DNA of 64,000 nt. It comes from Thermodesulfobacteriota bacterium (lineage in GTDB: Bacteria; Desulfobacterota_D; UBA1144; Nemesobacterales; Nemesobacteraceae). Within the stretch, counting starts at the first letter, position 1, and each line of letters starts with the position of its first letter. The DNA lies in the NCBI GenBank assembly GCA_965249045.1, contig OZ252213.1:201329-265328 (forward strand), given 5' to 3'. A program made the translations under genes and the position numbers. Shown piece after piece: positions 1,574 through 25,447 of the stretch. The notes beneath the pieces were generated by a model. It saw only the letters and a program-made list of their open reading frames with translations, did not search any database and was not told the DNA's origin.

Positions 1574-1592
1574 AAACAGGAGGACAACTAAA

Positions 1593-3212: not shown

Positions 3213-4220
3213 AAAAACACCGTTCACAAGCAGTTCCGCCAAGCGATGATCGACGCCTCACGCAAGGAGGGGTGGCGGCGCAAGCATCCTAAACCCATGG
3301 GGTCCGAGGAGATCGTCTACGGCGACAAGGTCATTAATCTTGTCAACACTGACCCTAAGCTTTCACGAAACAAGCATCGCAAGGTTTACCCGGAGAAGGA
3401 TTCCGCCTATATCGCCAACGGTGAGATCGGTATGGTTGTCGGTTTCTTCAGAAAGAAAGGAGCTCCGGACCTGCGCTGGAAACTTGAGGTCGAGTTTTCT
3501 TCGCAACCCGGCTTCAAGTATGACTTCACCAGTCGCGATTTTGGGGAAGAAGGAAATCCTGTCCTTGAACTTGCCTATGCGCTAACTGTGCACAAATCCC
3601 AAGGCAGCGAGTTCGGCACGGTCATCCTCGTGCTGCCGAACCCGTGCCGCCTGCTCTCGCGCGAACTGCTCTATACTGCTCTCACGCGCCAAAAGGATCG
3701 CATCATCATTCTGCACCAAGGACTGCGCACCGAGTTGCGCAAGTATTCCTCGGACGACCGCTCCGAAACTGCACGGCGCCTGACCAATCTCTTTGTCGCG
3801 CCGTCACCTGTCGAGATCAATGGCCTCTTTTTCGAGAGCTACCTGATCCACCGCACCTCGCGCGGCGAAATGGTACGCTCAAAGTCTGAAGTCATCATCG
3901 CGGACCATCTTGCCAACAATGGCATCGAGTACGGCTACGAGCAGCCGCTCACTATCAAGGGCACCACAAAGTACCCCGACTTCACTATTGAGGACATGGA
4001 AGCGGGGTTAACGTTCTACTGGGAGCACTGCGGGATGCTGCATGTGCAAAGCTACCGTAGCCGATGGGAAGAGAAACTCCAATGGTATAGAACCCACGGC
4101 ATTTTACCGCAGGAAGATGGAGGCGGCGAGAACGGCATATTGATCGTTACGCGCGACGAGGCAAATGGAAGCATAGATTCCTCCAAAATCACCGCGCTCA
4201 TCACAGACTTGTTAACTTGA
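3213..4220 (+). pseudogene. RecD-like helicase C-terminal part (UvrD_C_2-type motif TVHKSQGSE) fused to a C-terminal PD-(D/E)xK/Vsr-like nuclease-like module
   Basis: LAYALTVHKSQGSEFGTVILVLP is helicase motif V/VI. The C-terminus carries YPDFTIED...FYWEHCGM. The frame is continuous with the N-terminal fragment once the IS is removed. Confidence 0.7.
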
Positions 4221-5210: not shown

Positions 5211-5252
5211 AATATTCCCAGCCTCCCAAGCTTATCAAAGTAGTTTAAGGGT

Positions 5253-8862: not shown

Positions 8863-9948
8863 ATTCGTGGTTTCAAGTACCAAATGCAACTTTTGAGATA
8901 GATTAAAAGGGTAAGTTGCGATAATCTTCACAACCCTCTTTTAACGACCAGATCAAAAGGAGCATTTGAATGAGAAGACCAAAGCAACTTACCCTGGTAC
9001 AAAGATACCAGATTGCCATTTTGCTGAAAGCAGGCCACAACCAGACCCAGACGGCAAAGCAGCTTGGCGTGCACAAGTCCACCATCAGCAGGGAACTGCG
9101 TCGCAATCGCGGCAAGCGGGGGTACCGTCCCAAGCAGGCCCAGAGATTTGCCGACGCGCGGCGTTTCTGTGTCCAAAGCCGCATCTCACAGCAAACCTGG
9201 CTTCGGGTGGAACAGTTGCTAAGAGAAGACTGGAGCCCTCAACAGATAAGTCACTGGCTTGGGGATAACGAGGGATTGGAGGTAAGCCACGAGAGTATCT
9301 ACCGATATGTAAAAGACGACAAGATGAGTGGAGGAGATCTCTACACGCATCTTCGCTGCCGCAGAAAGCGCAGGAAACGCTACGGGACCCCCTGGCTCAG
9401 GGGACATATCAAAAACCGCGTCCGCATTGATCAGCGTCCCGACGTGGTAGATAAACGCTTACGCATAGGAGACTGGGAAGCTGATACCCTTGTTGGTACA
9501 AGGAACAGAAGCAAGGTGCTTGCAACCCTTGCCGAACGCAAGTCTCGCTATTGCATGATAGTGGTCTGCGAGGACAGAAAGGCCAACTCCATCTCCCGGG
9601 CTATACTTTCAGGGGCAGAACCGATGCGTGAGAGCTTTATGACGGTGACGTGCGATAACGGCAAGGAGTTTGCGTCGCATGAAGAGCTCTCCAGCAAGCT
9701 TGGTGCTGACTGGTACTTTGCCCATCCTTACCACTCGTGGGAGCGGGGTCTTTGTGAGAACACAAACGGACTTATACGCCAGTACTTCCCAAAGGGAATG
9801 GACTTTGCGGCGCTGACGCAGGAAGATGCCAACAGAGTTATGGATAAATTGAACAACAGACCGAGGGAGTGTCTTGGATTCAAAACACCGAATCAGGTAT
9901 TCTTCGGAACCGACCCACCTGTTGCGTTTGGTACTTGAAACCACGAAT
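8863..9948 (+). mobile_element. IS30-family insertion sequence (1086 bp) with 19-bp terminal inverted repeats ATTCGTGGTTTCAAGTACC
   Basis: Inverted repeats at 8863-8881 and 9930-9948. It carries a single transposase ORF. It is inserted 30 bp upstream of the sir2 start codon. Confidence 0.8.
8970..9938 (+). CDS. IS30-family transposase (N-terminal HTH, C-terminal DDE)
   Basis: LTLVQRYQIAILLKAGHNQTQTAKQLGVHKSTISRELRRN HTH. DDE core with DWEADT and CDNGKEF. Confidence 0.8.
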   Translation: MRRPKQLTLVQRYQIAILLKAGHNQTQTAKQLGVHKSTISRELRRNRGKRGYRPKQAQRFADARRFCVQSRISQQTWLRVEQLLREDWSPQQISHWLGDNEGLEVSHESIYRYVKDDKMSGGDLYTHLRCRRKRRKRYGTPWLRGHIKNRVRIDQRPDVVDKRLRIGDWEADTLVGTRNRSKVLATLAERKSRYCMIVVCEDRKANSISRAILSGAEPMRESFMTVTCDNGKEFASHEELSSKLGADWYFAHPYHSWERGLCENTNGLIRQYFPKGMDFAALTQEDANRVMDKLNNRPRECLGFKTPNQVFFGTDPPVAFGT

Positions 9949-10255: not shown

Positions 10256-11398
10256 ATGAAAACAAAGATAATACACACGTCTGACTGGCAGATCGGAAAG
10301 GTTTTCCGGTTTGTAGATAACCAGACGATGGGGCTCCTTCAGGAGGCGCGCCTCGGAGCGATTACCCGCCTGGGGGAGTTCGCCGAACAAAACGACGTCC
10401 ACCATATCCTGGTCGCCGGAGACGTATACGACATGGAGGCGCTCTCGACCCGCTCTCTTAACCAGCCGATTGAGCGCATGAGGAATTTCCCCGGGGTAAA
10501 ATGGCACCTGCTGCCGGGAAACCACGACCCCCATCGTCCAAACGGGCTCTGGGATCAACTCACTCGCAGAGGCATTCCAGACAACATTCATATCCATACC
10601 ATGCCCGAGCCCGCAATCTTTGAGGATGAATCTTTGGTTCTGCTGCCCGCTCCGCTTCTCCATCGAAAGACTCTTGAAGATCCGACCGCGTACATGGACA
10701 ACATCTCTCTTCCCGAAGGATTTGCGCGCATTGGAATCGCCCACGGCACCGTGGTCGGCTTCGGCTCGGACGATGAGAACATCCCGAATCACATAGCCCC
10801 TGACCGCCCCGCCCGCGCCGGGCTCTCTTATCTGGCCCTTGGCGACTGGCACGGACAGAGGAAGATAAACGACCACTGCTGGTACAGCGGCACACCGGAA
10901 ACAGACGCGTTTGACGTTGCGGACGGCGGACAAGCGCTGCTAGTGGAAATTTATGACACCGGAGCCGCTCCAAAGGTAACGCCCTTTGACACGGGACAGT
11001 ACAGATGGATCAGTCTTTCAGAACGGATAAACAACCGCGAGGACATTGATTTTCTTTCGGAAAAGCTCAGAAACGTAGACGAAAACCTGAACCGGGTGCT
11101 GCTGCACCTGAAGGCGGAAGGAGCCCTGTCGCTCGGCGACCGTGAATATTTCCAGCAGCAGATCACAGACGGCGTCTCGGCCGCACTCTGCTTCCTTCGC
11201 GTCGACGACAGCCGGCTTTTCCCCAGTCCCACGGAGGAAGACCTTGACCGGATTGACAGGCGGGGTTTCGTGCGTGCGGCCGCGGAAACCCTGAAGCGCA
11301 TGGCAAGCGAAGGAAACGATTCGGAACGGGAACTTGCAGCCGAGGCCCTCCAGCGACTCTACCTTGAGCATATGAAATCGGAGGCGGAGCGGCGATGA
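10256..11398 (+). CDS. sbcD: SbcD/Mre11-like metallophosphoesterase nuclease subunit
   Basis: Calcineurin-like motifs IIHTSDWQIGK, VAGDVYD and GNHDP. It is translationally coupled to the downstream ATPase by a 4-bp overlap. Confidence 0.7.
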   Translation: MKTKIIHTSDWQIGKVFRFVDNQTMGLLQEARLGAITRLGEFAEQNDVHHILVAGDVYDMEALSTRSLNQPIERMRNFPGVKWHLLPGNHDPHRPNGLWDQLTRRGIPDNIHIHTMPEPAIFEDESLVLLPAPLLHRKTLEDPTAYMDNISLPEGFARIGIAHGTVVGFGSDDENIPNHIAPDRPARAGLSYLALGDWHGQRKINDHCWYSGTPETDAFDVADGGQALLVEIYDTGAAPKVTPFDTGQYRWISLSERINNREDIDFLSEKLRNVDENLNRVLLHLKAEGALSLGDREYFQQQITDGVSAALCFLRVDDSRLFPSPTEEDLDRIDRRGFVRAAAETLKRMASEGNDSERELAAEALQRLYLEHMKSEAERR

Positions 11399-14106
11399 AA
11401 CTGCGATCCCTTGCGGTAAACCAGTTCAAAAAATTCACAAGCCCGATGCGTCTCGGCGAGATCAATGACGGGTTAAACGTCGTCGTCGGCCCGAACGAAA
11501 TGGGCAAGTCAACCCTGCTCGACGCGCTTCGCGCAGTGCTGTTTGAAAAACACGACTCAAGGGCAAGACCCGTAAAAGATCTGCAAAACGACCGGAACAA
11601 TGCAGGGCCGGTCATAGAGCTTGCCTTTGAACTTAATGAGGGTAATTACCGGATCAGAAAACGGTTCATAAAGAAGCCCTACGCGCGTCTTGACTGTCCC
11701 GACGGGCGAACACTTGAAGGAGACGCCGCTGAGGAGGAACTTCGCGAACTTCTGAGCCTGGGTAAACCCGCGAGAAGCGGAGCGCAGCCGGAAACCCTGG
11801 GAATGTGGAACGTGCTCTGGGTAAAGCAGGGCAGGTCTTTCGGAGCACCCGATCTTCCGGAAAGCGCGCGTGGGAATCTCCACGGCGCCCTTGAATCTGA
11901 GGTCGGCACGGTACTCGGGGGAAGACGAGGACGGGCACTGCCGCAGGTAATAGAAAAACAGCTCGGCGAACTGGTCACCTCCAGCACCAACAAGCCCAGA
12001 GGACAATACAGGGATATTCTCGAGCGGGAGACCTCACTTAACGGAGAAATCGAGAGTCTCGAGGAGCGCCGCGCGGAACTCTCTGACACCCTCGCCCGCC
12101 TTGAAGAAGCCCAAGAGACACTGAAGCGCTTGTCATCGGAGAATCGTGACGAAACCGACGGGGAAGAGATTAAAAGAGCGAGGCAACGGCACGGTGAACT
12201 GGCGGAGCTTGAAACCCGGAGAGAAGCCGCAGGGACCGAACTTGAACTCAGGAAGCTCAACCTGGAAAAGGCCGAAGGAGAAGAAAAACAGCGTAGCAAA
12301 CTGAAAGACGATATCAAAGCCGAAGAGGTGTCCTTGGATGCAGCCGGGAAACGGCGGGGAGAGGTGCGGAAAAAGGAAAGGGAATCCCGGGAAAAAATTG
12401 AAAAGCTACGCGAGGCGGTGCGCGAGGCCGAGGCAGGCCTCGGGGCGGCTGAAGATACCGTCCTGCGGGAAAGCCGCATTTTGGAAGCCGTGCGCCTGAA
12501 AAACCGGATCGGGGAGCTTGAGAGGCGTTTTGAAAAAGCTAGGGAAGCGGAAACACGCAGGCGGGAAGCCCAACGGGGAGCCGTAACCATTACGATCACC
12601 GAGGAACTGATCGAACGAATACGCGCGGCGGAGAAAGAACTTGAAAAAGCCACCGACCGCCTAAGCGCCGTCGCGACCACCATAACCCTTGATATGGAAC
12701 CGAACCGCCCCGTCGGTATTGAGATTAACGGTGAACCGTTTACAGACGACCGCTCTTCCATCTGGGCCGTTTCACCGGTAACAATAGCAATTCCCGAATG
12801 CGGACGAATCACGGTTGAACCAGCCGTAAAAAACCGGGATAAACTTCTTGGCCAGCAAAACAATGCCGAAGCCGAACTTAAAAACGCATTGAGGGAGGCT
12901 GGCGCCGAAAGCCCAAGTGAAGCCGAAAACCGTTACGGCGAGAGAGAGAAACTGCTACGGGACGCTGAGCTTGCCCGCCAAGAAGCGGAACTTCACTCTC
13001 CCGCAACCGAAGAGTACGAAGCTGGCGCGCTGGCGCTTGGCGACCACATTAAAAGTCTTTCTCTGGTACTCAAGCGGGAAACCGATGAACTCGCTTTAAG
13101 TGAACTACCCGCACTCAAAGAATCCGAGACGGCTCTTGAGGACGCTAGGGGGCGGGCTGCCGACGCGCGCCACGCTCTTGAGAAAGTACGCGCCGAACTC
13201 AGCGGACCGGACAAGGCGCTCGGCGATCTCCAGACCGAACTCACTACCGCCGACGTGCGTTACGAAGGTGCGGAAGAACATCTCGCCCGTCTTCGCAGTC
13301 AGCTTGAAGATGCGGAAAAGCAGTGCCCAAGCGATGAGCTTCTGAAAAATATCGATACGGCCCAAAAAAGGCTTTCGGAGCAGGAAGAGGTCATAGCTAA
13401 ACTGAGCGGCGGACGCGAGGATGAGACGCTTGAGCAGCTCCAGGCCCGTATGGACCGTCTTGAAAAGGCCATTGAGGAGAGACGTGAGAAACGCGGGAAT
13501 CTCGATGTGGAAATAAGCGGGCTCAGATCGCGCGTGGAGGCTTCCGAGGGCGGCGGGATTGACGAGGTGATTCAGCAGAAAAACCGCGAGCTTGAACTTT
13601 GCCAAGAAGAGATCAGACGCTCCAAGCGCGAGGTGGATGTTCTTACCCTGCTGCTTTCAACGTTACGCGGTGCCGAACGGGAAGCCAAGGAACTCTACAT
13701 GTCACCCGTGGTAAATCGACTCAGGCCCTATCTGCAACTCCTGTTCCCCGGTGCAAACATTGCTATAGATGAAAACCTCAAGATCACAGGCGTGGTACGG
13801 GAGGGCGGGTACGAAGAACCCTTCCATCACCTGAGCATGGGAACTCAGGAGCAGATCGCCGTTCTGGTCCGCCTGGCATTTGCGGAGATGCTCGTTGAGC
13901 AAGGGCAGCCAGCAACGGTAGTGCTTGATGACGCTCTTGTGTTTTCCGACGACCACAGGATGGACCGCATGTTCGACATTCTCAACATATCGGCCAAAAG
14001 CATCCAGGTCCTGATTTTTACCTGCCGAGAACAGCTTTTTGAAGGAATTGGCGGCTGTCACCTGTCATTGGAGACCGGGGACGCAGAGGAACTCATGTCG
14101 GCGTGA
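11395..14106 (+). CDS. sbcC: SbcC/Rad50/YhaN-like AAA_23 ATPase with long coiled coil; no CxxC zinc hook recognisable
   Basis: N-terminal Walker A VVGPNEMGKSTLLDA. Roughly 600 aa of E/R/K/L-rich coiled coil. C-terminal signature LSMGTQEQ and Walker B VVLDDALVFSDD. Confidence 0.65.
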   Translation: MKLRSLAVNQFKKFTSPMRLGEINDGLNVVVGPNEMGKSTLLDALRAVLFEKHDSRARPVKDLQNDRNNAGPVIELAFELNEGNYRIRKRFIKKPYARLDCPDGRTLEGDAAEEELRELLSLGKPARSGAQPETLGMWNVLWVKQGRSFGAPDLPESARGNLHGALESEVGTVLGGRRGRALPQVIEKQLGELVTSSTNKPRGQYRDILERETSLNGEIESLEERRAELSDTLARLEEAQETLKRLSSENRDETDGEEIKRARQRHGELAELETRREAAGTELELRKLNLEKAEGEEKQRSKLKDDIKAEEVSLDAAGKRRGEVRKKERESREKIEKLREAVREAEAGLGAAEDTVLRESRILEAVRLKNRIGELERRFEKAREAETRRREAQRGAVTITITEELIERIRAAEKELEKATDRLSAVATTITLDMEPNRPVGIEINGEPFTDDRSSIWAVSPVTIAIPECGRITVEPAVKNRDKLLGQQNNAEAELKNALREAGAESPSEAENRYGEREKLLRDAELARQEAELHSPATEEYEAGALALGDHIKSLSLVLKRETDELALSELPALKESETALEDARGRAADARHALEKVRAELSGPDKALGDLQTELTTADVRYEGAEEHLARLRSQLEDAEKQCPSDELLKNIDTAQKRLSEQEEVIAKLSGGREDETLEQLQARMDRLEKAIEERREKRGNLDVEISGLRSRVEASEGGGIDEVIQQKNRELELCQEEIRRSKREVDVLTLLLSTLRGAEREAKELYMSPVVNRLRPYLQLLFPGANIAIDENLKITGVVREGGYEEPFHHLSMGTQEQIAVLVRLAFAEMLVEQGQPATVVLDDALVFSDDHRMDRMFDILNISAKSIQVLIFTCREQLFEGIGGCHLSLETGDAEELMSA

Positions 14107-14193
14107 GTAGTGAGTAGACTTAACAGACAAGGAAAAATTCTCATAACCTTACCCAATCGTTGAGGCTTAAATTGAAGAAATACCGAAACTTAA

Positions 14194-14221
14194 ATTTGCG
14201 AAAGATTTAAAACGTTATCCA
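14194..14221. repeat. Second copy of 28-bp motif AATTTGCGAAAGATTTAARACRTTATC (first copy at 5311-5338)
   Basis: 26/28 identity with 5311-5338. It lies in the convergent intergenic region between sbcC and the helicase. Confidence 0.4.
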
Positions 14222-14248
14222 GAAAATTGGCGTGTTCCTCAAAAAATA

Positions 14249-16744
14249 TTATATATTTTCTCCGGTTTTCGTCCTAAATGAAGCATAGTCCTTGCGGTAA
14301 TCGCAACCGGCGCAAAACACCTCGTATTCTTTAGGGCTTTCTTTAGGACGCACGCCTAACCAGGCACTTTCGCCTCTCGTTAAACATGCCGGACAAGGAA
14401 CTTCATTGCTGGTATAGTTGCAAAGCCCTTTCCCGAAGTTCGTACATCCCAGAAATATGGAATACGGAGGAGGATTGCTCCTTACCCTCCTTACGAGAGC
14501 CCCTCTCCACCTTCCTTCGACCAGTCCCTTGCTGAGACATTCCGGACATGGCTTTACAACATCTCCTCTCAAAACAACATCGTTGAATTTAATACCCAAG
14601 CGCGCGCATATTTCTTTTACTTCTCTGGTAAAGGATGACGGCTGAATGGACTGATTGACGAGAAATATCTTCTCCCTAGCTCGAGTCATGGCTACATACA
14701 TCACGCGTCTATCTTCCGAATTTAAATAACTGTCGCTCGGAGGAAGAAAAACGGAGACCAGGGGATCCTCCCCTCCGTGGTTCGGAAAGCCCATCATGCC
14801 TGAATCCATCCCCAGTATAATGACAATATCCTCTTCAAGTCCTTTTGATTTGTGGATTGTTCCCTTGGATATCCTCAGGTCGTCTCTGTAGGACATCAGG
14901 TCTTTGGAATTAACGGCCTCAATTTCCCTGTTTTTTCGCCCCAGTATAAAAACCCCTTTGCTTTTATCCGATCTGGGAATCAGATCCAAAACCTTTTTTA
15001 AATTCTCGTTGTCGTAATAATCAACAGAACATATATTGACAGCAGGGGTGCTGTCATCCGCCGGTCGGGAACGAACGGATTTTCTGATCTGAACGGGGTT
15101 TTTCTGAATAAATTCAGAAGCGAGATCTGAAATTGGCTTGCAGGTTCGAAACGTCTCCTGAATCTTATACCCCCGAGGCTTAAATGAAGAGACCGACCGC
15201 TCCGGCATCTTTTTTTCTGGAGCAAGCGGTTTATCTGAATCAAGAAACTCTTTCATAACCATGCTGTTTGAACCGGTGAATCCATAGATCGACTGCCAGT
15301 CGTCTCCCACTGCGAAAAGACGAGAATCCGGGGCAAGTATCTGGGCAAGGAAATTCTTTCTGGATTCAGATACGTCCTGAAATTCATCCACCAGAGCATA
15401 TTTATACCGCCCCGGCCAGAACCTCTCTCTTTCGGTGCCGCTTAGATGGCGGGTCGGCCTTAAGATCATGTCTTCAAAATCTATGGTGCCGTTTTCGCTC
15501 AAGATCTTCTGGTAACTCTCAAAGATCGGAAGAAAGAACCTTTTAAACAGCCTGCTCCTGAATTTGTCGTGAAGAGAATCAAGGCGCATTGACAACCCTC
15601 CCGGGGAAAGATCGTTCGCCTTGGCCAGTTTTACGCATCTTGCGATCAGGTTGTACGTATCGTCTGTATAAAGTTTTTCAAGCCGTTTATTGATATATTC
15701 TTTAGAGGGAGGGTCATAAGAGATGCCTTTTTCGTCAAGCTTTTTTAAAATTTTCTCAAGCACGGTGCCTTCGTAATACTCATAGCTGTAAGTAAAAAGA
15801 AAGTCCTTGCCTTGTTTTTCGTAGAACTTATTTTTCTGCCGAAACGTTTCAACGTAGCCCTTAAAGGGCGAGCTGCCGTCTCTTCCGATCGCAAAGTGCT
15901 CGTGCCAAATATCTATTTCCGGGTAATAAAAATCCGGGGTTACCTGCCCGTCAGGATAGGGTCTTTCATACTCTACATTCACTCCCTTGATTATCAGACT
16001 GTTTATGATTGCAAGCTCCTGCTGAGATCTCACCCAGTATTTCTCATCTAAGCTTGGAATGCGCTTCGGTTCAAAGTCTCTGCCTGATCTGAATGACTCC
16101 CTTTTGTAGGGGTAGCTCACGACAGCCTCGTTGTATTCCTCCTCATTCCGGGCGAATTCCTCTATCTGATGGTATGGACTCTCGGCCCTGAACTCAGAAA
16201 TCCAGTTCTCAATCTTCGGGTATCTGCCCTTCGCCTTATCGATTATCTTTAGCACGTTGGCCGTGTCTAAAAGACCGTCAGAAGAGGATTCCGAAAGAAT
16301 ATCCACTCTTTTTCTTCCTTCCACCTTGTTCAGTAATTCAAGACCAAACCCGTGAAAGGTGTAAACTTCGGGATTGATGCCATCTGAGACAAGCTTTTTT
16401 ATCTTTTCCTTAAGCTCCTGCTCTATGGCTTTGTTAAAAGCAAGAACCAGAATTTCTTTTGGGCTTGCAAGCCCTTCTTTTAGTAAAAAAACGTATTTTC
16501 CTATAAGCGTCGTAGTTTTCCCCGAACCTGCCGAGGCTATAACCAGCGTTCGATAGGAATCATCAACTATGCAGAGTCTCTGCTCTTGAGTAAGGGGGTT
16601 AGGAAAAAGATGGTCAAAAAGATCTTTGTGTTTTGACAGCAAAGATTTCGTTTTTGCCGCGTCCGGTTCCGAGGTGGATTTTTTCCGAAACCATACAATT
16701 AATATAAGTACAACTATTAGAAACAGTAAAAGGAAAAGTTCCAT
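14249..16744 (-). CDS. UvrD/PcrA-family SF1 helicase with N-terminal transmembrane helix, PD-(D/E)xK (Vsr/NERD-like) module inserted between motifs Ia and II, and C-terminal tandem C4 zinc ribbons
   Basis: N-terminal MELFLLLFLIVVLILIVWF. Helicase motifs ASAGSGKTTTL (motif I), DEFQD (II), VGDDWQSIYGF and YVAMTRAREK. Inserted EYERPYPDGQVTPDFYYPEIDIWHEHF. C-terminal CPEC...C, CPAC, CAGC. AT-rich relative to its neighbours. Confidence 0.7.
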   Translation of the reverse strand: MELFLLLFLIVVLILIVWFRKKSTSEPDAAKTKSLLSKHKDLFDHLFPNPLTQEQRLCIVDDSYRTLVIASAGSGKTTTLIGKYVFLLKEGLASPKEILVLAFNKAIEQELKEKIKKLVSDGINPEVYTFHGFGLELLNKVEGRKRVDILSESSSDGLLDTANVLKIIDKAKGRYPKIENWISEFRAESPYHQIEEFARNEEEYNEAVVSYPYKRESFRSGRDFEPKRIPSLDEKYWVRSQQELAIINSLIIKGVNVEYERPYPDGQVTPDFYYPEIDIWHEHFAIGRDGSSPFKGYVETFRQKNKFYEKQGKDFLFTYSYEYYEGTVLEKILKKLDEKGISYDPPSKEYINKRLEKLYTDDTYNLIARCVKLAKANDLSPGGLSMRLDSLHDKFRSRLFKRFFLPIFESYQKILSENGTIDFEDMILRPTRHLSGTERERFWPGRYKYALVDEFQDVSESRKNFLAQILAPDSRLFAVGDDWQSIYGFTGSNSMVMKEFLDSDKPLAPEKKMPERSVSSFKPRGYKIQETFRTCKPISDLASEFIQKNPVQIRKSVRSRPADDSTPAVNICSVDYYDNENLKKVLDLIPRSDKSKGVFILGRKNREIEAVNSKDLMSYRDDLRISKGTIHKSKGLEEDIVIILGMDSGMMGFPNHGGEDPLVSVFLPPSDSYLNSEDRRVMYVAMTRAREKIFLVNQSIQPSSFTREVKEICARLGIKFNDVVLRGDVVKPCPECLSKGLVEGRWRGALVRRVRSNPPPYSIFLGCTNFGKGLCNYTSNEVPCPACLTRGESAWLGVRPKESPKEYEVFCAGCDYRKDYASFRTKTGENI

Positions 16745-17268
16745 TGGATGATAAAATTAGACTTGAAGAGCAAAAATGGAATGGTATGAAAAAGTACCTG
16801 ACCGATGTATGAGACTCCAGAAGATACCACTTTGCTGAATAATTACCAATTCAAAATCTGTTAGTATTAAGATACCGAGGGTATTAAGATCCGGGAAAAA
16901 GAGCGGACTTTCTGGTCTCCGGAGACTTCCGAGAGCAATCGCTTAATGATCGCCGGGAGGTTTTAAGTCAAAATCGGTTTTAATTATGAAACGGGTTCCC
17001 GGGATGTTCTTCTCTTAATAAAAAACAAAAGGGCGCGTCGCGGTTTTTCGCCATGAACCGCTCATATTCGTTTCAATCTGTTATCAGAAACGCCGTGTCA
17101 GAATAAAAGAGTCCGACACCCCGCTTTTGTTCACGCTTAAAGGGGAGATGACTGTTGAGTCTGGGGGTTGCGGGCGGTCTCGGGCCGGTCGGACAAAGCG
17201 GAATTCCGTGCGAGAAAAACCCCAAGAGCCGCCTGTAAAGGTGAATTGCCCGCTGCGCGGGAGGTCGT

Positions 17269-19035
17269 ATGAACTTACTGCTTGAAACTTTTGTTTTCCT
17301 GCTGGCAACGATAGTCGTTGTCCCGGTGTGCCGCAAGTTCGGATTGAGTACCGTGCTCGGCTACCTGCTTGCGGGGCTGCTCGTAGGTCCAAGCGGCCTT
17401 GGGCTTATAGGCAACTCCGCCGAAGTGCTTCACTTTGCTGAGTTCGGCATAGTTCTGCTGCTGTTTATTATCGGGCTTGAGCTTCGCCCGCGCCGTCTTT
17501 GGACCATGCGCAGGCTTCTCCTCGGGCTTGGCGCCGTGCAGATTCTCCTTACCTCAATCGTCATTGCGGCATTTAGTTTCATGTTGCTCGGCCTTAGTCC
17601 GCCTGCGTCGGTTCTGATCGGGTTCTCCCTCGCGCTTTCAAGCACGGCATTTGTTCTTCAGCTGCTCGGCGAGCAGAAAAAATTAACCAAACCCCATGGG
17701 CGAGCGGCTTTCGGAACGCTCTTAATGCAGGATGTGGCCGTTATACCGGCAATCGCCGTGGTGGCGGTGCTGTCGGCTGAAACCAGTGAATCGACATGGA
17801 TAAATCCGCTGCTCTTAGCTGGCGTAGTGGGCGGACTCGTGGTGGCGCGGTTTACGCTTCGCCCCGCCCTGCATTTCGTGGCGGCGACCGGGATCCATGA
17901 ACTTTTCACCGCGGCCGCGCTTGCTCTTGTGGTGGGCGCCGCGTTAGCGATGCACAGCGTGGGACTGTCGATGGGACTCGGGGCTTTCATAGCCGGAGTG
18001 ATGGTTGCCGATTCGGAGTACCGCCACCAGCTCGAAGCCGACGTGATGCCGTTTAAGGGACTGCTGCTGGGTCTTTTCTTCATCGCCGTCGGCATGTCGA
18101 CCAATCTCGGTCTGCTGATCGAACTGCCGTTTCTGATCGCGGGGCTGACCGCGGCCCTCATGGTCGCAAAATCGCTTGTCATATACCCGCTTGCAAGGGC
18201 TCAGGGGCTTGGGCACGGAGAAGCGGTACAGACGGGACTTGTGCTTGCCCAGGGCGGCGAATTCGCGTTTGTTCTGTTCACAGCCGGCGTCGGCGCGGCG
18301 CTCATTGACCGGGACATCGCCGATATTGCCGTTCTCGTGGTCACGCTGTCGATGGCGGCCACCCCGGTGCTCACCACGCTCGGCGCGCGGTTCGCCCCAA
18401 AGGACCCGGATATTCCCCATGAGGAGACAGACGGCGAACCGCGGGAAAGTCACGTGATAATCGCGGGGTTCGGCCCGTTCGGCCAGACTGTGGCCCGCGT
18501 ATTGGCAACACTCAAAATTCCGTTCACGGCGATTGAGCTTGACCCGGGGCGGGTCAGGTTAGTCCGTCAGTTCGGAAGCAAGATATACTACGGCGATGCG
18601 TCCCGCTTCCAAGTGCTGCTTTCAGCCCGCGCCGACCGGGCGGCGGCGATTGTAATAGCGGTAGAAGACGTTGAGACATCGCTTAAGATTGCGAACCAGG
18701 TGCGCAGATCCTTTCCGAACGTTAAAATCATGGCGCGCGCCGCGGATCCTTTTCACGAGATCAGGCTGCGCGAAGCAGGCGCGGGTTACGTGATCAGAGA
18801 AACGCTGCTCTCAAGTCTTGCTCTCTCGGAAAAACTCCTTGAGCATCTGGGAATGAGCCCGGGCGAAGCCGCGAGGATAACTCGGGAGTTCCGCAAGCAC
18901 GATTCCCAGACTCCTGAAAGCCGGACGGCCGTTTACCAGGACGAAGCCAAGTTTCGCCGAAGCGTGCCCGATGCGGTTGAGGACCTCAAAAATCTGCTGA
19001 AAAAAGATAAGAAAACCGGTCCGCGCACAGAATAA
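17269..19035 (+). CDS. KefB/KefC-type glutathione-regulated K+/H+ antiporter (CPA2) with C-terminal RCK/TrkA-N domain
   Basis: N-terminal ~380 aa is a polytopic membrane domain (LGYLLAGLLVGPSGLG). C-terminal GFGPFGQTVARVL Rossmann fold. Confidence 0.8.
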   Translation: MNLLLETFVFLLATIVVVPVCRKFGLSTVLGYLLAGLLVGPSGLGLIGNSAEVLHFAEFGIVLLLFIIGLELRPRRLWTMRRLLLGLGAVQILLTSIVIAAFSFMLLGLSPPASVLIGFSLALSSTAFVLQLLGEQKKLTKPHGRAAFGTLLMQDVAVIPAIAVVAVLSAETSESTWINPLLLAGVVGGLVVARFTLRPALHFVAATGIHELFTAAALALVVGAALAMHSVGLSMGLGAFIAGVMVADSEYRHQLEADVMPFKGLLLGLFFIAVGMSTNLGLLIELPFLIAGLTAALMVAKSLVIYPLARAQGLGHGEAVQTGLVLAQGGEFAFVLFTAGVGAALIDRDIADIAVLVVTLSMAATPVLTTLGARFAPKDPDIPHEETDGEPRESHVIIAGFGPFGQTVARVLATLKIPFTAIELDPGRVRLVRQFGSKIYYGDASRFQVLLSARADRAAAIVIAVEDVETSLKIANQVRRSFPNVKIMARAADPFHEIRLREAGAGYVIRETLLSSLALSEKLLEHLGMSPGEAARITREFRKHDSQTPESRTAVYQDEAKFRRSVPDAVEDLKNLLKKDKKTGPRTE

Positions 19036-19129
19036 AAAATGCGCTTAATCTTCTTTTCCGCGAAGGCAGCAGTTTTTCAGATAATGTGCCAAAGCTCCTC
19101 GCTTCCCAAAAAACCCGATATGTTATCGG

Positions 19130-19985
19130 CTATTGCCAAAGAGCCGAAAAGGGAACGGCCAGGAACCTGTCGCCGAAAGGAACCACGTCCTCTCCCGCGT
19201 ACAACACGAAGCCGCAGACAAAATCGTCTTTAGTTCAGATCCCGAAGTACTCCCATGCCTTTAAAATCGGCGGAACCGACCCGCTCCGAAGCCTTGACCT
19301 CTATGCCGGCAACCGAGCCGTCCGGACGTTCGAGAACAAAATCAACCTCTTTGTTGTCAGCGGTGCGAAAGTGAAAAAGATCCGCCCGCACGTCGGAGAA
19401 GGAAAGCAGTTTGCGAAGCTAAGAAGCTACAAAGTTCTCAACGGCATGACCGTAGAAATCGGTCCACCTGCCGCGCGGACCCTCAAGCTCGCGGTCAAGC
19501 AGATGACAAAGCAGCAGGGTATCGATAATATAGCCCTTGGCGGACTTCACCAGCCGTTTGCCGATGTTGCGATACCACGGCTGAACGTCAAAGCCGAGAA
19601 ACATCGCCTGCAGAATACCGCGGTAGCTTTTGCTGGTAACGGGGTTAAGTCCCATGTCACGCGCAATCTCGGCGTCGTTTAGAAGTTTGCCTGCGCGTGC
19701 CGCCAGAACCCGAAGCAGTCTTGGCAGAAGGCCGATTTTTTCAAGCTCGGTAACAGTGCGCACGTCGCGCTGCAGTATGGTTGTAAGGTAGCCGTCAAAC
19801 CACTCTGCCCGCTTGCGCGCAGGTTTTCCCGATATTTCGAGAAACGTGGCTGACTGAATGGCTTCACTAAGCGTCGGTCCGTTTCCCATGTCGGCAAAAT
19901 CGGCTGAAAACAGCCTCTCCGGGAAATCGCCTTTCGTAGAGAAAACCTCGCAGGCTGAAAAGGGGTAAAGAGTTCTTATGCTCAT
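19130..19985 (-). pseudogene. Truncated/frameshifted paralog of the AAA_14-DUF4143 ATPase (lacks the N-terminal P-loop part; premature stop at 19419)
   Basis: ~88% nucleotide identity to 25449-26330. The ORF 19419-19985 matches residues ~226-414 of the 25448-26692 protein. The C-terminal remainder sits in another frame, ending at a stop at 19130. Confidence 0.65.
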
Positions 19986-20192
19986 GCGTCCGACAAGGGA
20001 ATCGGATAGATTCGGGGAAACGGAGTGAACGAACCCAGCGGCGACGCGGAAAGAAAAAACGGGAGAGAGAAAATGAAGAAAAAATCGCCGCGAAGCTTCC
20101 GCGCTGCTTGGGCTTTACCGACGCCACGGGACCGCGGAAGGGTACATGGGAGAACTCAAGGACTTGTTCCGCTCGTCTTTGTCTTCAACCTT

Positions 20193-21440
20193 TTATTCCG
20201 TCTCCCAGAGTGACTGCAAAGGCACCGCATAAAGACCTTCACCAAATCGCAAGTTTCTTTCTCCGTTATAAAGCACGACTCCGCAGGAAAAACGATCGCC
20301 TGCAGCGGCCTTGAGTCTGCGCAGCCCCCGAAAATCCGAATCTCTCGCGGTGGCCGATGCCTTGACTTCAACCCCGGCAAGGGCGCTCGCTCCGCGCTCT
20401 ATAACGATATCAACTTCCGTTCCGTCTTTTTCCCGGTAGTGAGAGAAAACATGCGGCTCTCGGTGTCCGCTTAGCTGCCGACGCAGTTCCTGCAACACCC
20501 AGGTTTCAAGAAGATGACCGTAAAAGGGTCTGTTTGCCGAAAGCGCGGCGGCATTCATTCTCATAAGTGCGCAGGCAATACCCGTGTCGGCGATGTGAAG
20601 TTTTGGAGTCTTGACCAGGCGTTTCAGGTGATTGGGGTGCCACGCCGGCAGTTTTTCCAGCAGAAACATTTTTTCCAGCAGAAAAATATAATCATGAACC
20701 GTATTGCGGCTCAGTTTAAAAGACGAGGACAGACCGTTTACACTCAGAAGGCTTGCAGTCTGCGCGGCCGCCAAGGCAAGAAGCCTCGACAGAATTTCAG
20801 GTGAACGGATTGCGGCAATGTCACGTGAATCGCGCTCTACAAGTATCTCGATATATTTCCTGTACCAGTCGGCACGTCTTTCTCCAGAGCGCTGAAGCGC
20901 AACCGGATACCCACCGGCGGCCACTTTGTCCATAATAACCATTTCCGGTGAATCACTCCTGTCTTGCCAGATATTGAATTCCGAGGAAAACAGCGCATCC
21001 GGGAAACCGGGCGTGTTTCCCTCAAGTTCGCTTTGTGAAAAAGGATGCAGCCTGATTATATCCATGCGCCCGGCAAGCGAATCGGTTATCCCGCGGACAT
21101 GCAGCACGCTGACCGAGCCGGTCAGCATAAAACGCCCCGGAGTACGATTGCGGTCAACCACAAGCTTGATGGATGAGAAAATCTCCGGCACTTTCTGGAC
21201 TTCGTCCAGAATGACGCGTTCAGGCAGAGTTTTCACAAATCCCATGAGGTCTGCCTCGGCAGCGGCGCGAGTGTCTTCATCATCAAAACTTATGTAGTGA
21301 TAGCCCTCGGTCTTGCCGACCATACGGGCAAGGGTGGTTTTTCCGCACTGGCGGGGTCCCTGAATCAATACGACAGGGGAATCTTCAAGAGTTTCTCTCA
21401 GACGTGATTCAACGTGCCGCGTGTAACTTTCTTCATACAT
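20193..21440 (-). CDS. AAA_14-family ATPase with C-terminal DUF4143 (predicted restriction-endonuclease-like fold) domain
   Basis: Walker A IQGPRQCGKTTLAR and Walker B VILDEVQ. It is a divergent paralog of 25448-26692. Confidence 0.7.
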   Translation of the reverse strand: MYEESYTRHVESRLRETLEDSPVVLIQGPRQCGKTTLARMVGKTEGYHYISFDDEDTRAAAEADLMGFVKTLPERVILDEVQKVPEIFSSIKLVVDRNRTPGRFMLTGSVSVLHVRGITDSLAGRMDIIRLHPFSQSELEGNTPGFPDALFSSEFNIWQDRSDSPEMVIMDKVAAGGYPVALQRSGERRADWYRKYIEILVERDSRDIAAIRSPEILSRLLALAAAQTASLLSVNGLSSSFKLSRNTVHDYIFLLEKMFLLEKLPAWHPNHLKRLVKTPKLHIADTGIACALMRMNAAALSANRPFYGHLLETWVLQELRRQLSGHREPHVFSHYREKDGTEVDIVIERGASALAGVEVKASATARDSDFRGLRRLKAAAGDRFSCGVVLYNGERNLRFGEGLYAVPLQSLWETE

Positions 21441-21580
21441 GGTTGATTAACTGTAATCATCTCTACAACTAATTGCAACTTTATATTCAGACTAATTACT
21501 AAGTTTAAGCATAGTAAATTATCAGATTAGCGACTTTTATAGAATTTTTAATGTTATAACAGATAGTTACAAGGTACAGG

Positions 21581-21649
21581 TAATTGTCGGGCTTAGGAAT
21601 GACTAATTGTCAGGTTTAAAGATGGCTGATTGTCAGATTGATGTACATC
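21581..21649. repeat. Three tandem ~23-bp direct repeats (TAATTGTCRGGNTTARRRATGRC) in an AT-rich divergent intergenic region
   Basis: Read directly from the sequence: 21581-21603, 21604-21626 and 21627-21649. Confidence 0.5.
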
Positions 21650-22012
21650 CAGTTATCAACCATTGTATATTTACAAACAAATATAAAAATGATTTTCCGA
21701 AATCTCTAAAGCAAAAAATGATCTCTTTATGGTACGAAGAAAAAAATGGGTTTTTCATAAGTTCACCGCGCGGACTCACCGGCTTACTTTGATTTCCTGT
21801 CGCGATACGTCCGGCGGATTGAAACGTTTTCCGGCCGACCCCGAACGGGCAGAGAGATTATTCGCGCTACTATATGATATGCTTTTCAGTTGAGAGCAAC
21901 TTGCCTCTTGTCGGCAAAAGGACCGAAATACAGGATGTGCGAAGTCATAACCGGGTATGTCTTACAAGTGTTTCGGGTACGTTGCCATCGCCCGAAGTGA
22001 AGATCAGACGGG

Positions 22013-23791: not shown

Positions 23792-23880
23792 AAAACCCGG
23801 ATATTAACAATGCAAAGACAGTAAATAAAAGTTCGCAATCCTGAGAGTCTATCTGAAAATCCAAAAAAAGGGGGGAATTA

Positions 23881-24198: not shown

Positions 24199-24237
24199 TC
24201 AACACGGCCACAGATTCACGATCCGGCATGCTGTCTA

Positions 24238-24335
24238 CTACTGCCAGAAAACGGAAAAGCAACGGCCGGAACCCCTCGCCGAAAGGAACCACGTCCGCTC
24301 CGGCGTACGGCACTACACCGCGGACCGCGATCTAT
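24238..24335 (-). pseudogene. ~100-bp remnant of the 3' end of another AAA_14-DUF4143 ATPase gene copy
   Basis: Matches the C-terminal ~30 codons, including stop and ...LWQ, of the copies at 25449 and 19130. Confidence 0.5.
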
Positions 24336-25143: not shown

Positions 25144-25447
25144 GCGTTCGCCTCCTTGTGTAATTACACTGTAATCACTAGGCAGGAGGATTTCAAGGCC
25201 GGCGGACACGGTGTCTTCTTATTCCAGCAAAAATGAACACCAAACACTTAACCGGTCGGTTTCGCCTTTCGTTAAACATGCAGGGCAAGAATACTCCTTG
25301 AAAATTGGAAGGCCGCCATCCAATTTTCAAGCCAAATTGCGGTTTCCCTCCCATGAGAAAGGCGGCGGAATAAGAACGGACAACCGGCGATTTTCGAGAT
25401 AACGTAGTGAATCTTCCCGCCTCTCGAAAAATCCAACACCCCGCCGG

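What the first reader, a model, noticed from the sequence alone, without database searches (positions are those of the whole stretch)
14249..16744. AT-rich, membrane-anchored UvrD-like helicase with an inserted PD-(D/E)xK-like module and C-terminal zinc ribbons
The N-terminal 19 residues are a strongly hydrophobic TM-like helix (MELFLLLFLIVVLILIVWF), which is unusual for a helicase. The segment between motif Ia and motif II, where UvrD has domain 1B, contains EYERPYPDGQVTPDFYYPEIDIWHEHF. This resembles the Vsr/DUF559-type endonuclease core, and also resembles the C-terminus of the IS-disrupted helicase at 3213-4220. The C-terminus has CPEC/C...C/CPAC/CAGC pairs, i.e. two C4 ribbons. Its composition is clearly lower in GC than the flanking sbcCD and kefC. 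A remnant of a second copy's zinc-ribbon region (CPACLTKGETDRLSVW) lies at 25220-25300 next to mazE. Inference: this is a horizontally acquired single-gene nuclease-helicase immunity-type module (NERD/UvrD/zf-C4-like architecture) that has been duplicated and decayed elsewhere in the region.
Basis: partly seen in the sequence, partly recalled or inferred. Interest (0 to 1): 0.6.

Follow-up and report, generated by a model that had tools for sequence, protein, structure and literature searches.

The report
Membrane-tethered helicase with built-in nuclease
This horizontally acquired gene encodes a DNA-unwinding motor that carries a DNA-cutting domain inside it, two zinc DNA-binding fingers at its tail and a membrane anchor at its head; it is most likely an uncharacterised single-gene weapon against invading DNA, but that role is untested.

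Summary
ORF 14249-16744 (-) encodes an 831-aa SF1A UvrD/helicase-IV-like helicase with all motor motifs. An N-terminal hydrophobic helix (res 2-20) is conserved across its clade. A ~180-aa insert in domain 1B folds confidently (pLDDT 91) as a PD-(D/E)xK nuclease. It resembles Vsr/DUF559/homing endonucleases by structure and T7 endonuclease I by sequence profile. Its putative catalytic residues (E243, D271, E282-H283, K304) are >=99% conserved in 206 distant relatives. The tail holds two C4 zinc ribbons, aligned with topoisomerase-I-type ribbons in distant relatives. The gene is a compositional outlier (GC3 0.49 vs 0.62). It has no conserved partner gene, occupies different sites in syntenic relatives, occurs on >100 plasmids, and here lies among SIR2-HerA, PDC-S68, PDC-S01 and mazEF. 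The relic at 25144-25368 is real. Two corrections: there is no NERD domain, and the IS-split helicase is a different family (PDC-S68) sharing only the nuclease module. Best reading: a stand-alone, mobile, membrane-tethered nuclease-helicase acting on foreign DNA. Defence is inferred from context only. The family is large (>=814 clusters) and I found no description of it.

The parts
14249..16744 (-). Complete ORF: 831-aa membrane-anchored helicase-nuclease
   Evidence: the ORF listing. Pfam UvrD-helicase 8.4e-44, UvrD_C 8.2e-13. Full-length AF2 model pLDDT 84.3, pTM 0.79. Foldseek top hits are UvrD/PcrA/Rep/AddA/RecB.
16685..16741 (-). N-terminal hydrophobic helix (res 2-20), predicted single-pass membrane anchor with N-out/C-in topology
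   Evidence: KD mean 3.54 over 17 residues. Hydrophobicity is conserved despite sequence change through the 35-94% identity clade. AF2 helix at 2-20, then a <50 pLDDT linker at 19-26. Net charge +1.1 after the helix against ~0 before it, in 79 TM-type members.
16328..16597 (-). Helicase domain 1A, first half (res 50-139): Q motif (Q55), Walker A AGSGKT (72-77), motif Ia
   Evidence: Invariant columns L51, Q55, A70, A72, G73, G75, K76, T129, F130, H131. Aligns to PcrA 12-101.
15560..16102 (-). Insert within domain 1B (res 215-395): PD-(D/E)xK endonuclease core (res ~230-345, window 15710-16057) plus a helical bundle
   Evidence: AF2 model of res 200-400: pLDDT 91.3, alpha-beta-beta-beta-alpha-beta order. 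Pfam Phage_endo_I in 9 of 34 family segments, best 9.8e-5. PDB profile top hits are T7 endonuclease I; hhalign against T7 gp3 gives 77%, E 2e-5. BFVD Foldseek hits to Vsr, DUF559, DUF2726, homing endonucleases and TnsA-N at E 6e-5 to 1e-3. PADLOC HEAT_CxxC_PD-DEXK 9.5e-6, PDC-S68 1.7e-5. S240, E243, E260, D271, E282, H283, Y297 and K304 are >=99% conserved in 206 distant relatives.
15245..15559 (-). Return helix of 1B and second half of 1A (res 396-500): motif II DEFQD (453-457), motif III GDDWQSIY (480-487)
   Evidence: Invariant D453, E454, Q456, D457, G480-S485. Aligns to PcrA 165-270.
14645..15244 (-). Helicase domain 2A (res 501-700): motif IV (R533), V (H631/K634/G635), VI (Y683-V-A-M-T-R-A-R). 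No sizeable 2B domain (only ~95 aa between motifs IV and V).
   Evidence: Invariant columns. Pfam UvrD_C and UvrD_C_2. NCBIfam helicase IV best stretch 390-711.
14411..14560 (-). Zinc ribbon 1 (res 729-778): C733-x2-C736 ... C767-x7-C775
   Evidence: All four Cys invariant. Same alignment columns as Pfam Zn_ribbon_Top1 (PF01396) in distant homologs, 7 of 18 members, best 7.5e-28. Beta-rich in the AF2 model.
14285..14404 (-). Zinc ribbon 2 (res 781-820): C784-x2-C787 ... C811-x2-C814
   Evidence: All four Cys invariant. PF01396 in aligned distant homologs. Profile weakly finds E. coli Topo I 4rul and TFIIS/RPA12 ribbons.
16745..17100 (.). AT-rich upstream tract belonging to the acquired segment (presumed promoter region, not defined)
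   Evidence: GC 0.40 at 16500-16999 against 0.54-0.63 beyond. No clear Shine-Dalgarno or sigma-70 match upstream of the start.
25144..25368 (-). Decayed relic of the 3' end (zinc-ribbon region) of a second helicase copy, abutting the mazE start codon
   Evidence: tblastn with homolog P0032: 78-aa alignment with in-frame stops, E 5e-4 / 1.5e-5. DNA match to 14357-14397 (E 2.6e-6) and to helicase 3' ends in L086 and L083 (E 3e-8, 2.6e-9). The relic-plus-mazE block is 91% conserved in the P0013 genome.
3855..4103 (+). Homologous nuclease module at the C-terminus of a different protein (IS3-split RecD-like PDC-S68). Related domain, not a copy of this gene.
   Evidence: hhalign of the insert profile against window 3750-4217: probability 91%, E 1e-6, with shared S..E / PDF / WEH motifs. 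PADLOC PDC-S68 6.6e-139 for ORF 3246-4220.

Best explanation
The gene encodes a stand-alone, horizontally mobile nuclease-helicase.

Shown:
- It has an intact SF1A (UvrD/helicase-IV-like) ATP-driven motor.
- A PD-(D/E)xK endonuclease domain with strictly conserved catalytic-type residues is inserted into accessory domain 1B.
- Two C4 zinc ribbons sit at the C-terminus. In distant relatives the same alignment columns are recognisable topoisomerase-I-type ribbons.
- A single N-terminal hydrophobic helix is present, and its charge pattern places the enzyme body in the cytoplasm.

Inferred:
- The protein sits on the inner face of the membrane.
- The zinc ribbons and motor engage single-stranded or forked DNA, and the motor translocates 3'->5' as its relatives do.
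- The nuclease, placed in 1B where UvrD-type helicases contact the duplex/junction, cuts the DNA being unwound, giving ATP-coupled degradation in the manner of RecB/AddA.
- Its biological role is most likely defence against incoming foreign DNA (phage, plasmid). Membrane tethering would bias its action towards DNA that enters at the envelope rather than the nucleoid.
For: Architecture:
- Pfam UvrD-helicase 8.4e-44.
- All helicase motifs invariant in 20 homologs.
- UvrD/PcrA/AddA/RecB are the top fold matches.
- The insert maps inside 1B by PcrA alignment.

Nuclease:
- Confident model.
- T7 endonuclease I by profile.
- Vsr/DUF559/DUF2726/homing-endonuclease/TnsA folds.
- PD-DEXK defence-candidate models.
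- >=99% conservation of E243, D271, E282, H283 and K304 in 206 distant representatives.

Zinc ribbons.

TM helix: conserved hydrophobicity and positive-inside charge.

Mobility and solo status:
- GC3 0.49 against 0.62.
- No neighbour family in more than 6 of 85 loci, and the commonest are an integrase and a serine recombinase.
- Different contexts at 64-82% identity.
- Syntenic hslVU/CP_ATPgrasp frame with the helicase in a different slot.
- 113 plasmid records.

Defence context:
- SIR2 2.9e-162, HerA 3.9e-252, a TIR-like effector, PDC-S68, PDC-S01 and mazEF within 12 kb.
- Homolog loci carry Eco57I/MmeI RM, GmrSD_C, SocA, MqsA, DUF262 and a Gabija-like pair.

Precedent: membrane localisation as a nuclease specificity strategy in Zorya, Kiwa and SNIPE (PMC12904381).
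Against: - No functional test. The defence role rests on guilt by association.
- The canonical PD-(D/E)xK lysine position is a phenylalanine (F284). Catalysis would need H283 and/or K304, as in Vsr-type variants, and I could not inspect the model's coordinates to confirm that they converge on one site.
- The TM call rests on hydropathy, conservation and an AF2 helix, not on a dedicated topology predictor. No clear RBS precedes the start codon.
- Most of the wider family (97 of 104 census representatives) lacks the TM helix and has a helicase-IV-type N-terminus instead. Membrane tethering therefore cannot be essential to the family's core activity.
- The best curated family match is helicase IV, a protein tied to recombination/repair.
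- One homolog (P0099) sits among housekeeping genes.
Confidence: 0.55

Rival explanations
1. It is a DNA repair/recombination helicase of the helicase IV lineage. The embedded T7-endonuclease-I-like domain would cleave branched intermediates (forks, junctions) that the motor remodels, serving the host's own genome maintenance rather than immunity.
For: Best NCBIfam hit is DNA helicase IV (2e-79). Distant relatives carry the Helicase_IV_N domain. The closest sequence family of the nuclease is a Holliday-junction resolvase. P0099 lies among housekeeping genes. Here it is adjacent to an SbcCD-like pair and 30 kb from uvrC.
Against: Score 268 bits is far below the 543-bit equivalog cutoff, and the Helicase_IV_N domain is absent here. 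Sporadic, non-syntenic distribution, low GC3, plasmid carriage and defence-island contexts are not what a core repair gene shows. A membrane anchor is hard to reconcile with nucleoid-wide repair. The convergent orientation and the GC difference argue against co-function with SbcCD.
Confidence: 0.18
2. It serves a mobile element rather than the host: a plasmid/ICE/island-encoded enzyme that excludes or degrades competing incoming elements at the membrane (entry-exclusion-like), or that helps the island's own DNA processing.
For: 113 plasmid records, 56 of them mobilizable or conjugative. Integrase and serine recombinase are the commonest neighbours. It sits next to a relaxase on a Vibrio plasmid. 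The membrane anchor suits action on transferred ssDNA, and Topo-type ribbons bind ssDNA (established for E. coli Topo I).
Against: No conserved linkage to relaxase, T4SS or replication genes. Many copies are chromosomal with no evident element borders, and no flanking repeats were found here. This largely overlaps with the defence reading and differs mainly in who benefits.
Confidence: 0.15
3. The insert is a catalytically dead PD-(D/E)xK fold used only for DNA binding or as a wedge, so the protein is simply a helicase or translocase.
For: The canonical lysine of the (D/E)xK motif is replaced by Phe284. The query's own insert hits no Pfam nuclease family.
Against: Three acidic residues plus His283 and Lys304 are >=99% conserved across 206 representatives from clusters below 50% identity, which is unusual for a dead domain. 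Vsr-type relatives found by fold search also lack the canonical lysine and use histidine (established knowledge of E. coli Vsr; for the fold match).
Confidence: 0.07
4. The N-terminal hydrophobic stretch is not a membrane anchor. It could be an annotation artefact of the start codon or a cleaved signal-like peptide.
For: No Shine-Dalgarno sequence upstream. A few database homologs are called from internal starts and lack it (P0009, P0025, P0033).
Against: Hydrophobic helix followed by basic residues is preserved in dozens of homologs whose sequence there has diverged completely, which implies translation and selection. An 18-residue uninterrupted hydrophobic core with no preceding basic n-region and no AxA-type site is anchor-like, not signal-peptide-like. 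An ATP-dependent helicase must stay cytoplasmic.
Confidence: 0.05

Closest known systems
E. coli DNA helicase IV (HelD; NCBIfam NF008276, Pfam Helicase_IV_N + UvrD-helicase)
   Same: Closest curated helicase family (2e-79). Same SF1A core with a small or absent 2B domain. Distant members of this family carry Helicase_IV_N.
   Different: Score is half the equivalog cutoff. The query has a TM helix in place of the ~220-aa N-domain. The profile-to-query coordinates imply that the helicase IV model lacks the ~150-180-aa nuclease insert, and it has no zinc ribbons. My recollection of the E. coli sequence agrees, but I did not check it here.
RecB / AddA (UvrD-type helicase fused to a PD-(D/E)xK nuclease)
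   Same: SF1A motor plus PD-(D/E)xK nuclease in one polypeptide. Among the top fold matches. The likely logic is the same: unwinding coupled to cleavage.
   Different: In RecB/AddA the nuclease is a C-terminal RecB-family domain and the enzymes work in multi-subunit complexes. Here a Vsr/T7-endo-I-like domain is inserted in 1B, the protein is solo and membrane-anchored, and it has zinc ribbons.
Phage T7 endonuclease I (Pfam PF05367) and the Vsr/DUF559/DUF2726 branch of PD-(D/E)xK nucleases
   Same: E243 and D271 align with T7 E20 and D55. The PDFxxP...hhhE pattern parallels T7 PDFLLPNGIFVE. Fold matches to Vsr-like and homing endonucleases.
   Different: The T7 K67 position is Phe284, and an invariant His283 and Lys304 appear instead. 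The query itself does not reach any Pfam threshold. The domain is embedded in a helicase rather than free-standing.
PADLOC defence candidates PDC-S68 / PDC-S69 / HEAT_CxxC_PD-DEXK
   Same: They share the same nuclease module type (E 1.7e-5, 1.3e-4, 9.5e-6). A PDC-S68 copy lies in the same island, with hhalign 91%.
   Different: PDC-S68 is a ~1200-aa RecD-like SF1B helicase with the nuclease at the C-terminus. The whole-protein match of the query to PADLOC is only to generic UvrD (GajB) models.
Single-gene nuclease-helicase defences (Nhi, Hna) and two-gene Gabija / Hachiman
   Same: The concept: a helicase motor combined with a nuclease that attacks foreign DNA. GajB models give the best PADLOC scores.
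   Different: No GajA partner and no conserved neighbour of any kind. Different helicase subfamily and nuclease placement from Nhi and Hna (from my knowledge of those proteins; their models were not among the 25 PADLOC hits shown). None of these is known to carry a TM anchor on the helicase.
Membrane-localised DNA-targeting defences (SNIPE, Zorya, Kiwa)
   Same: Membrane placement of a DNA-acting effector as a possible route to self/non-self discrimination (PMC12904381).
   Different: No sequence or domain relationship. Those systems use dedicated membrane sensors or partner proteins, whereas here a single TM helix is fused directly to a helicase-nuclease.

Membership tests
SF1A UvrD/Rep/PcrA-like helicases | Conserved motifs Q, I, Ia, II, III, IV, V, VI and the two-RecA-domain fold | tested here: met
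   Pfam PF00580 8.4e-44 and PF13361 8.2e-13, both above cutoff. Invariant Q55, GSGKT, DEFQD, GDDWQS, R533, H631/K634/G635, Y683..R688. Foldseek E 1e-17 to 1e-19 to UvrD/PcrA/Rep.
DNA helicase IV (NF008276 equivalog) | Whole-protein score at or above the curated cutoff (543 bits) | tested here: not met
   267.8 bits.
DNA helicase IV (NF008276 equivalog) | N-terminal Helicase_IV_N domain (PF12462) | tested here: not met
   No Pfam hit. Only 49 residues precede the Q motif, 20 of them a hydrophobic helix. PF12462 is present only in distant relatives P0110, P0111 and P0117.
PD-(D/E)xK nuclease superfamily | alpha-beta-beta-beta-alpha-beta core fold | tested here: met
   AF2 secondary-structure order H241-252, E257-259, E272-274, E279-284, H297-311, E315-319 at pLDDT >90. 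Foldseek hits are restricted to PD-(D/E)xK proteins.
PD-(D/E)xK nuclease superfamily | Catalytic signature E ... PD ... (D/E)xK | tested here: inconclusive
   E243, P270-D271 and E282 are present and >=99% conserved. The K position is F284, with invariant H283 and K304 as candidate substitutes.
Phage_endo_I (PF05367, T7 endonuclease I) | Significant match to the family profile | tested here: inconclusive
   The query segment has no hit. 9 of 34 homolog segments hit, best 9.8e-5. hhalign 77%, E 2e-5 over 42 columns. PDB profile E ~0.04.
Vsr / DUF559-type endonucleases | Sequence or fold match to Vsr-like domains | tested here: inconclusive
   Fold: BFVD hits to a Vsr endonuclease (9.7e-5), DUF559 (3e-3) and DUF2726 (1.4e-3), and PDB I-Bth0305I at TM 0.67. 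Sequence: no Pfam hit to the Vsr or DUF559 families.
Topoisomerase-type C4 zinc ribbon (PF01396 Zn_ribbon_Top1) | Four Cys per ribbon with the family's spacing, and a profile match | tested here: inconclusive
   Eight invariant Cys form two C4 units. PF01396 matches 7 of 18 aligned homologs (7.5e-28) in the same columns, but not the query itself. Metal binding is not testable here.
NERD-UvrD-zf architecture (PADLOC C3a187) | N-terminal NERD nuclease domain | tested here: not met
   No NERD hit in Pfam. The C3a187 match (2.7e-14) covers only helicase residues 51-145.
Gabija (GajA + GajB) | Adjacent GajA (ATPase-TOPRIM/OLD) partner gene | tested here: not met
   No conserved neighbour in 85 loci. 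The adjacent SbcC-like gene matches GajA models only over its first ~60 residues (P-loop) and is convergently oriented.
PDC-S68 (PADLOC candidate) | Full-length match to the ~1200-aa RecD-like model | tested here: not met
   Only the insert matches, to model positions 1093-1183.
Anti-phage defence system (functional class) | Experimentally shown protection against phage or plasmid | not testable with these tools
   Only context: neighbours are SIR2-HerA, a TIR-like effector, PDC-S01, PDC-S68, mazEF and Fic, with similar contexts in homolog loci.
Integral membrane protein (single-pass anchor) | Hydrophobic helix of >=18 residues with flanking charge asymmetry | tested here: met
   KD 3.54, conserved, positive-inside pattern, AF2 helix at 2-20. 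Actual membrane insertion is not testable here.

The most novel reading that the evidence does not exclude
A single polypeptide combines membrane anchor, ssDNA-binding zinc ribbons, translocase and nuclease. It would intercept DNA at its point of entry into the cell (phage injection, conjugation or transformation) and shred it processively. Self/non-self discrimination would then be achieved purely by location, with no sensor partner or DNA modification. The non-anchored majority of the family, with a helicase-IV-type N-domain, would represent a second targeting solution for the same 1B-embedded nuclease motor.
Probability: 0.25. Interest if true: 0.75.

Novelty: new variant of a known kind. 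Interest (0 to 1): 0.55.

Why it matters
Helicase-nuclease fusions are a recurring solution in bacterial immunity and repair. This one differs in three ways. The nuclease is built into the helicase's 1B accessory domain rather than appended. It is paired with topoisomerase-type zinc ribbons. In one clade, a transmembrane anchor replaces the N-terminal domain. The family is large: at least 814 clusters at 50% identity with E <= 1e-30. It spans many phyla and more than 100 plasmids, yet it is annotated only as 'UvrD-helicase domain-containing protein', and I found no paper on it. If it is a defence gene, it adds a compact, single-gene, motor-driven effector. It would also give a simple model for testing whether membrane placement alone can spare the chromosome. 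If it is a repair enzyme, it redefines what 'helicase IV-like' proteins do in most bacteria.

Tried and rejected
- Foldseek of the insert against PDB gave nothing below E 1e-3. I used it only as a qualitative pointer and relied on the viral library, where hits were significant.
- Pfam on the query's insert, tail and N-terminus alone gave no usable hit. Scanning each family member separately was needed.
- Direct tblastn of the query against the window gave only chance-level echoes. Using homologs and profiles rescued both.
- Promoter/terminator scans found no more sites than shuffled controls and nothing at the gene ends. No flanking direct or inverted repeats mark an insertion. There are no tRNA genes in the window.
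- I considered co-function with the adjacent SbcCD-like pair and rejected it: convergent orientation, different GC, and not conserved elsewhere.
- I considered a link to the DUF4143/AAA_14 ATPase (PDC-S01), which recurs nearby in close relatives. It appears in only 4 of 85 loci overall, so I treat it as shared island content.
- I rejected Gabija, NERD-UvrD and PDC-S68 membership (see the membership table).
- I rejected the idea that the IS-split helicase is a decayed duplicate of this gene.
- Six literature searches and a term search inside the DefensePredictor paper found no description of this architecture. The library lacks most subscription-journal papers, so absence is not proof.


Full report
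**Observation**

The ORF exists exactly as reported: 14249-16744 on the minus strand, ATG start, 831 aa. It is compositionally distinct. GC is 0.447 against 0.56-0.59 for the genes on either side, and GC3 is 0.488 against a median of 0.616 for the window's long ORFs. The low-GC tract covers just the gene and about 350 nt upstream. The quoted N-terminal peptide, the EYERPYPDGQVTPDFYYPEIDIWHEHF segment and the four cysteine pairs are all present.

**Helicase core**

- Pfam places the protein in UvrD-helicase (8.4e-44, split into two stretches) and UvrD_C.
- The best curated family is DNA helicase IV, but at 268 bits against a 543-bit cutoff.
- PADLOC gives only generic UvrD (GajB) models.
- In a 20-sequence alignment reaching 32% identity, every SF1 motif is invariant: Q55, AGSGKT, DEFQD, GDDWQS, R533, H631/K634/G635 and YVAMTRAR.
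- The full-length AlphaFold2 model (pLDDT 84, pTM 0.79) matches UvrD, PcrA, Rep, AddA and RecB at E 1e-15 to 1e-19. No solved structure shares the whole architecture.
- Only ~95 residues separate motifs IV and V, so the large 2B domain of UvrD/PcrA is missing.

**The insert**

PcrA aligns to query 51-214 and 396-500. The insert is present in all homologs examined, including the most distant ones. Its invariant residues form a nuclease-like pattern: S240, E243, E260, P270-D271-F272, E282-H283, Y297 and K304.

Alone, the query segment hits nothing in Pfam. Wider evidence identifies it:

- 9 of 34 family segments hit Phage_endo_I (best 9.8e-5).
- The insert profile's top four PDB hits are all T7 endonuclease I. 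Family E243 aligns to T7 E20, and D271 to T7 D55. hhalign against authentic T7 gp3 gives 77% probability, E 2e-5.
- A model of residues 200-400 is confident (pLDDT 91.3, pTM 0.87) and has the alpha-beta-beta-beta-alpha-beta order of the restriction-endonuclease fold.
- Foldseek against PDB gives no significant hit, but the list consists almost entirely of PD-(D/E)xK nucleases: PA-N, RecE, the Vsr-like I-Bth0305I at TM 0.67, TnsA and Cas4.
- Against viral predicted structures the hits are significant, E 6e-5 to 1e-3 at probability 1.0. They include a Vsr endonuclease, homing endonucleases, DUF2726, DUF559, TnsA-N and a junction resolvase.
- PADLOC models HEAT_CxxC_PD-DEXK, PDC-S68 and PDC-S69 also hit the insert.

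The canonical lysine position is Phe284. By analogy with Vsr, which uses histidine next to the third-motif residue (from my knowledge of Vsr), His283 and/or Lys304 may substitute. I could not check this in coordinates.

Across 206 representatives from distinct sub-50%-identity clusters, E243, E260, D271, E282, H283, Y297 and K304 are each conserved in 204-206 sequences. That argues strongly for an active enzyme.

**C-terminus**

Eight cysteines are invariant. In distant members the same columns read CPxC...G.F.GCSNYPxC and match Pfam Zn_ribbon_Top1 at 7.5e-28. The profile weakly retrieves E. coli topoisomerase I and TFIIS/RPA12 ribbons. Two C4 zinc ribbons of the topoisomerase type is a fair description. 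In Topo I these bind ssDNA (established knowledge).

**N-terminus**

- The hydrophobic helix has a KD mean of 3.54. It is followed by RKK and by a low-confidence linker.
- Its hydrophobicity persists through homologs whose sequence there is unrelated.
- The charge bias is positive-inside: +1.1 after the helix against ~0 before it.
- It is clade-specific. 79 of 216 complete sequences have it, but only 7 of 104 unbiased census representatives do. The rest carry a ~220-aa helicase-IV-type N-domain in the same position.

**Surroundings and mobility**

The window's first 30 kb is a defence island. It contains:

- a RecD-like PDC-S68 helicase-nuclease split by an IS3 element
- a TIR-like effector
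- SIR2-HerA (E 1e-162 and 1e-252)
- an IS30 element
- an SbcCD-like pair
- this helicase
- kefC
- PDC-S01 ATPase paralogs
- a TPR protein
- mazEF
- a Fic protein

. Housekeeping genes follow from about 30.7 kb.

The evidence for mobility is as follows:

- The source is a ~1.76-Mb metagenomic contig. A sister strain is 99.8% identical across 10280-26744 and diverges to the left. One close homolog is labelled Candidatus Dadabacteria.
- Across 85 loci, no flanking gene family recurs in more than six. The top ones are an integrase and a serine recombinase.
- Homologs at 64-82% identity sit in different contexts, often with RM, GmrSD, TA or ATPase genes.
- In the P0043 genome the helicase lies between hslVU and a CP_ATPgrasp operon. 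Those two blocks are collinear with window 30714-33290 and 34947-38977. Here that slot holds a different 1.7-kb cargo, and the helicase is 18 kb away.
- The family is on 113 plasmid records and essentially absent from bona fide phage genomes.

**The 'second copies'**

The IS-split helicase is not a copy of this gene. It is a PDC-S68 protein (6.6e-139) whose C-terminal module is homologous to the insert (hhalign 91%, E 1e-6, shared S..E/PDF/WEH motifs).

The relic near mazE is genuine. Window 25144-25368 (minus strand) aligns to the last ~75 residues of homologs, from PPPYS to the terminal GGER, with in-frame stops. It ends at the mazE start codon. It matches helicase 3' ends at the DNA level in three genomes. 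The relic-mazE block is 91% conserved in the P0013 genome, so it is an old relic.

**Size and prior knowledge**

The insert profile finds 5,060 representative clusters at E <= 1e-3 and 814 at E <= 1e-30. The top hits are nearly all 800-1,000-aa proteins with the domain embedded at ~200-410 or ~350-560. Public annotations are generic. Six literature searches and a term search inside the DefensePredictor paper found no description of the architecture. A 2026 review lists membrane localisation (Zorya, Kiwa, SNIPE) as a recognised way for DNA-targeting defences to gain specificity (PMC12904381).

**Interpretation**

Shown: the domain architecture, conservation of catalytic-type residues, solo status, mobility and defence-island context.

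Inferred: membrane insertion, nuclease activity, coupling of unwinding to cleavage, and a defence role. I put the composite at 0.55.

The main rival is a repair/recombination role in the helicase IV tradition (0.18). After that come a mobile-element-serving role (0.15), a dead nuclease domain (0.07) and a non-anchor N-terminus (0.05).

The protein works like RecB/AddA or the single-gene nuclease-helicase defences. It is not a member of helicase IV, Gabija, NERD-UvrD or PDC-S68 by their defining features.

Noticed in passing
window 173-4220 (+), IS at 1593-3124: A RecD-like SF1 helicase-nuclease matching PADLOC candidate PDC-S68 (C-part E 6.6e-139) is split by an IS3-family element (orfA 1593-2090, orfB 2066-3124). 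The end of the same IS (window 3173-3241) is found fused to a truncated copy of the UvrD-type helicase in another metagenome (P0044), so this IS is active across the population.
   Followed up: partly
window 4227-8832 (-): A low-GC (GC3 0.37-0.41) SIR2-HerA defence pair (PADLOC SIR2 2.9e-162, HerA 3.9e-252) is followed by a 327-aa protein with a TIR-effector / nucleoside 2-deoxyribosyltransferase-like C-terminus. The sister strain L001 carries a different SIR2_2-HerA allele at this position, and the two strains diverge left of 10280.
   Followed up: partly
window 8970-9938 (+): An IS30-family transposase (HTH_38 + rve) sits at the point where the window and the sister strain stop being collinear. 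A related IS30 lies next to the helicase in the P0013 genome (L086 5588-6598).
   Followed up: no
window 19127-20015 and 25445-26332: An 889-nt repeat at 87.6% identity covers DUF4143/AAA_14 ATPase genes (PADLOC PDC-S01, 7.5e-131 for 25448-26692). Paralogs of this ATPase recur within a few kb of the helicase in several close relatives but not in the wider family.
   Followed up: partly
window 24566-25143 (-), palindrome 25297-25331: An intact mazE (24895-25143) and mazF/pemK (24566-24898) pair lies immediately downstream of the helicase relic. The gene caller for the sister locus listed only mazE. A 35-nt near-perfect palindrome lies inside the relic, upstream of mazE, and could be an operator.
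   Followed up: partly
window 33291-34946: The slot between hslU and the CP_ATPgrasp operon is a variable-cargo hotspot. Here it holds one 315-aa ORF (33791-34738, minus strand, GC3 0.45, no Pfam hit). In the P0043 genome it holds a subtilase, an AAA_16 ATPase, a small ORF and the helicase.
   Followed up: partly
window 10256-14106 (+): The SbcD-like (Metallophos) and 903-aa SbcC-like (SMC_N/AAA_27) pair gives only weak, partial matches to Lamassu LmuB (1.4e-14) and to the P-loop end of GajA models. It is unclear whether it is housekeeping SbcCD or a defence-type SMC nuclease.
   Followed up: no
window 26920-28026 (-) and 28252-29988 (-): A DUF4172+Fic/DOC protein and a 578-aa ORF with no Pfam hit close the defence-rich stretch, just before the housekeeping xerC-hslVU block.
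   Followed up: no
L088 (Vibrio parahaemolyticus plasmid NZ_CP010886) 1-8406: On this mobilizable plasmid, a family member with a longer N-terminus lies beside an AAA ATPase plus a second UvrD-helicase gene (a Gabija-like pair) and a DUF262 protein. This is another defence-type cluster.
   Followed up: no
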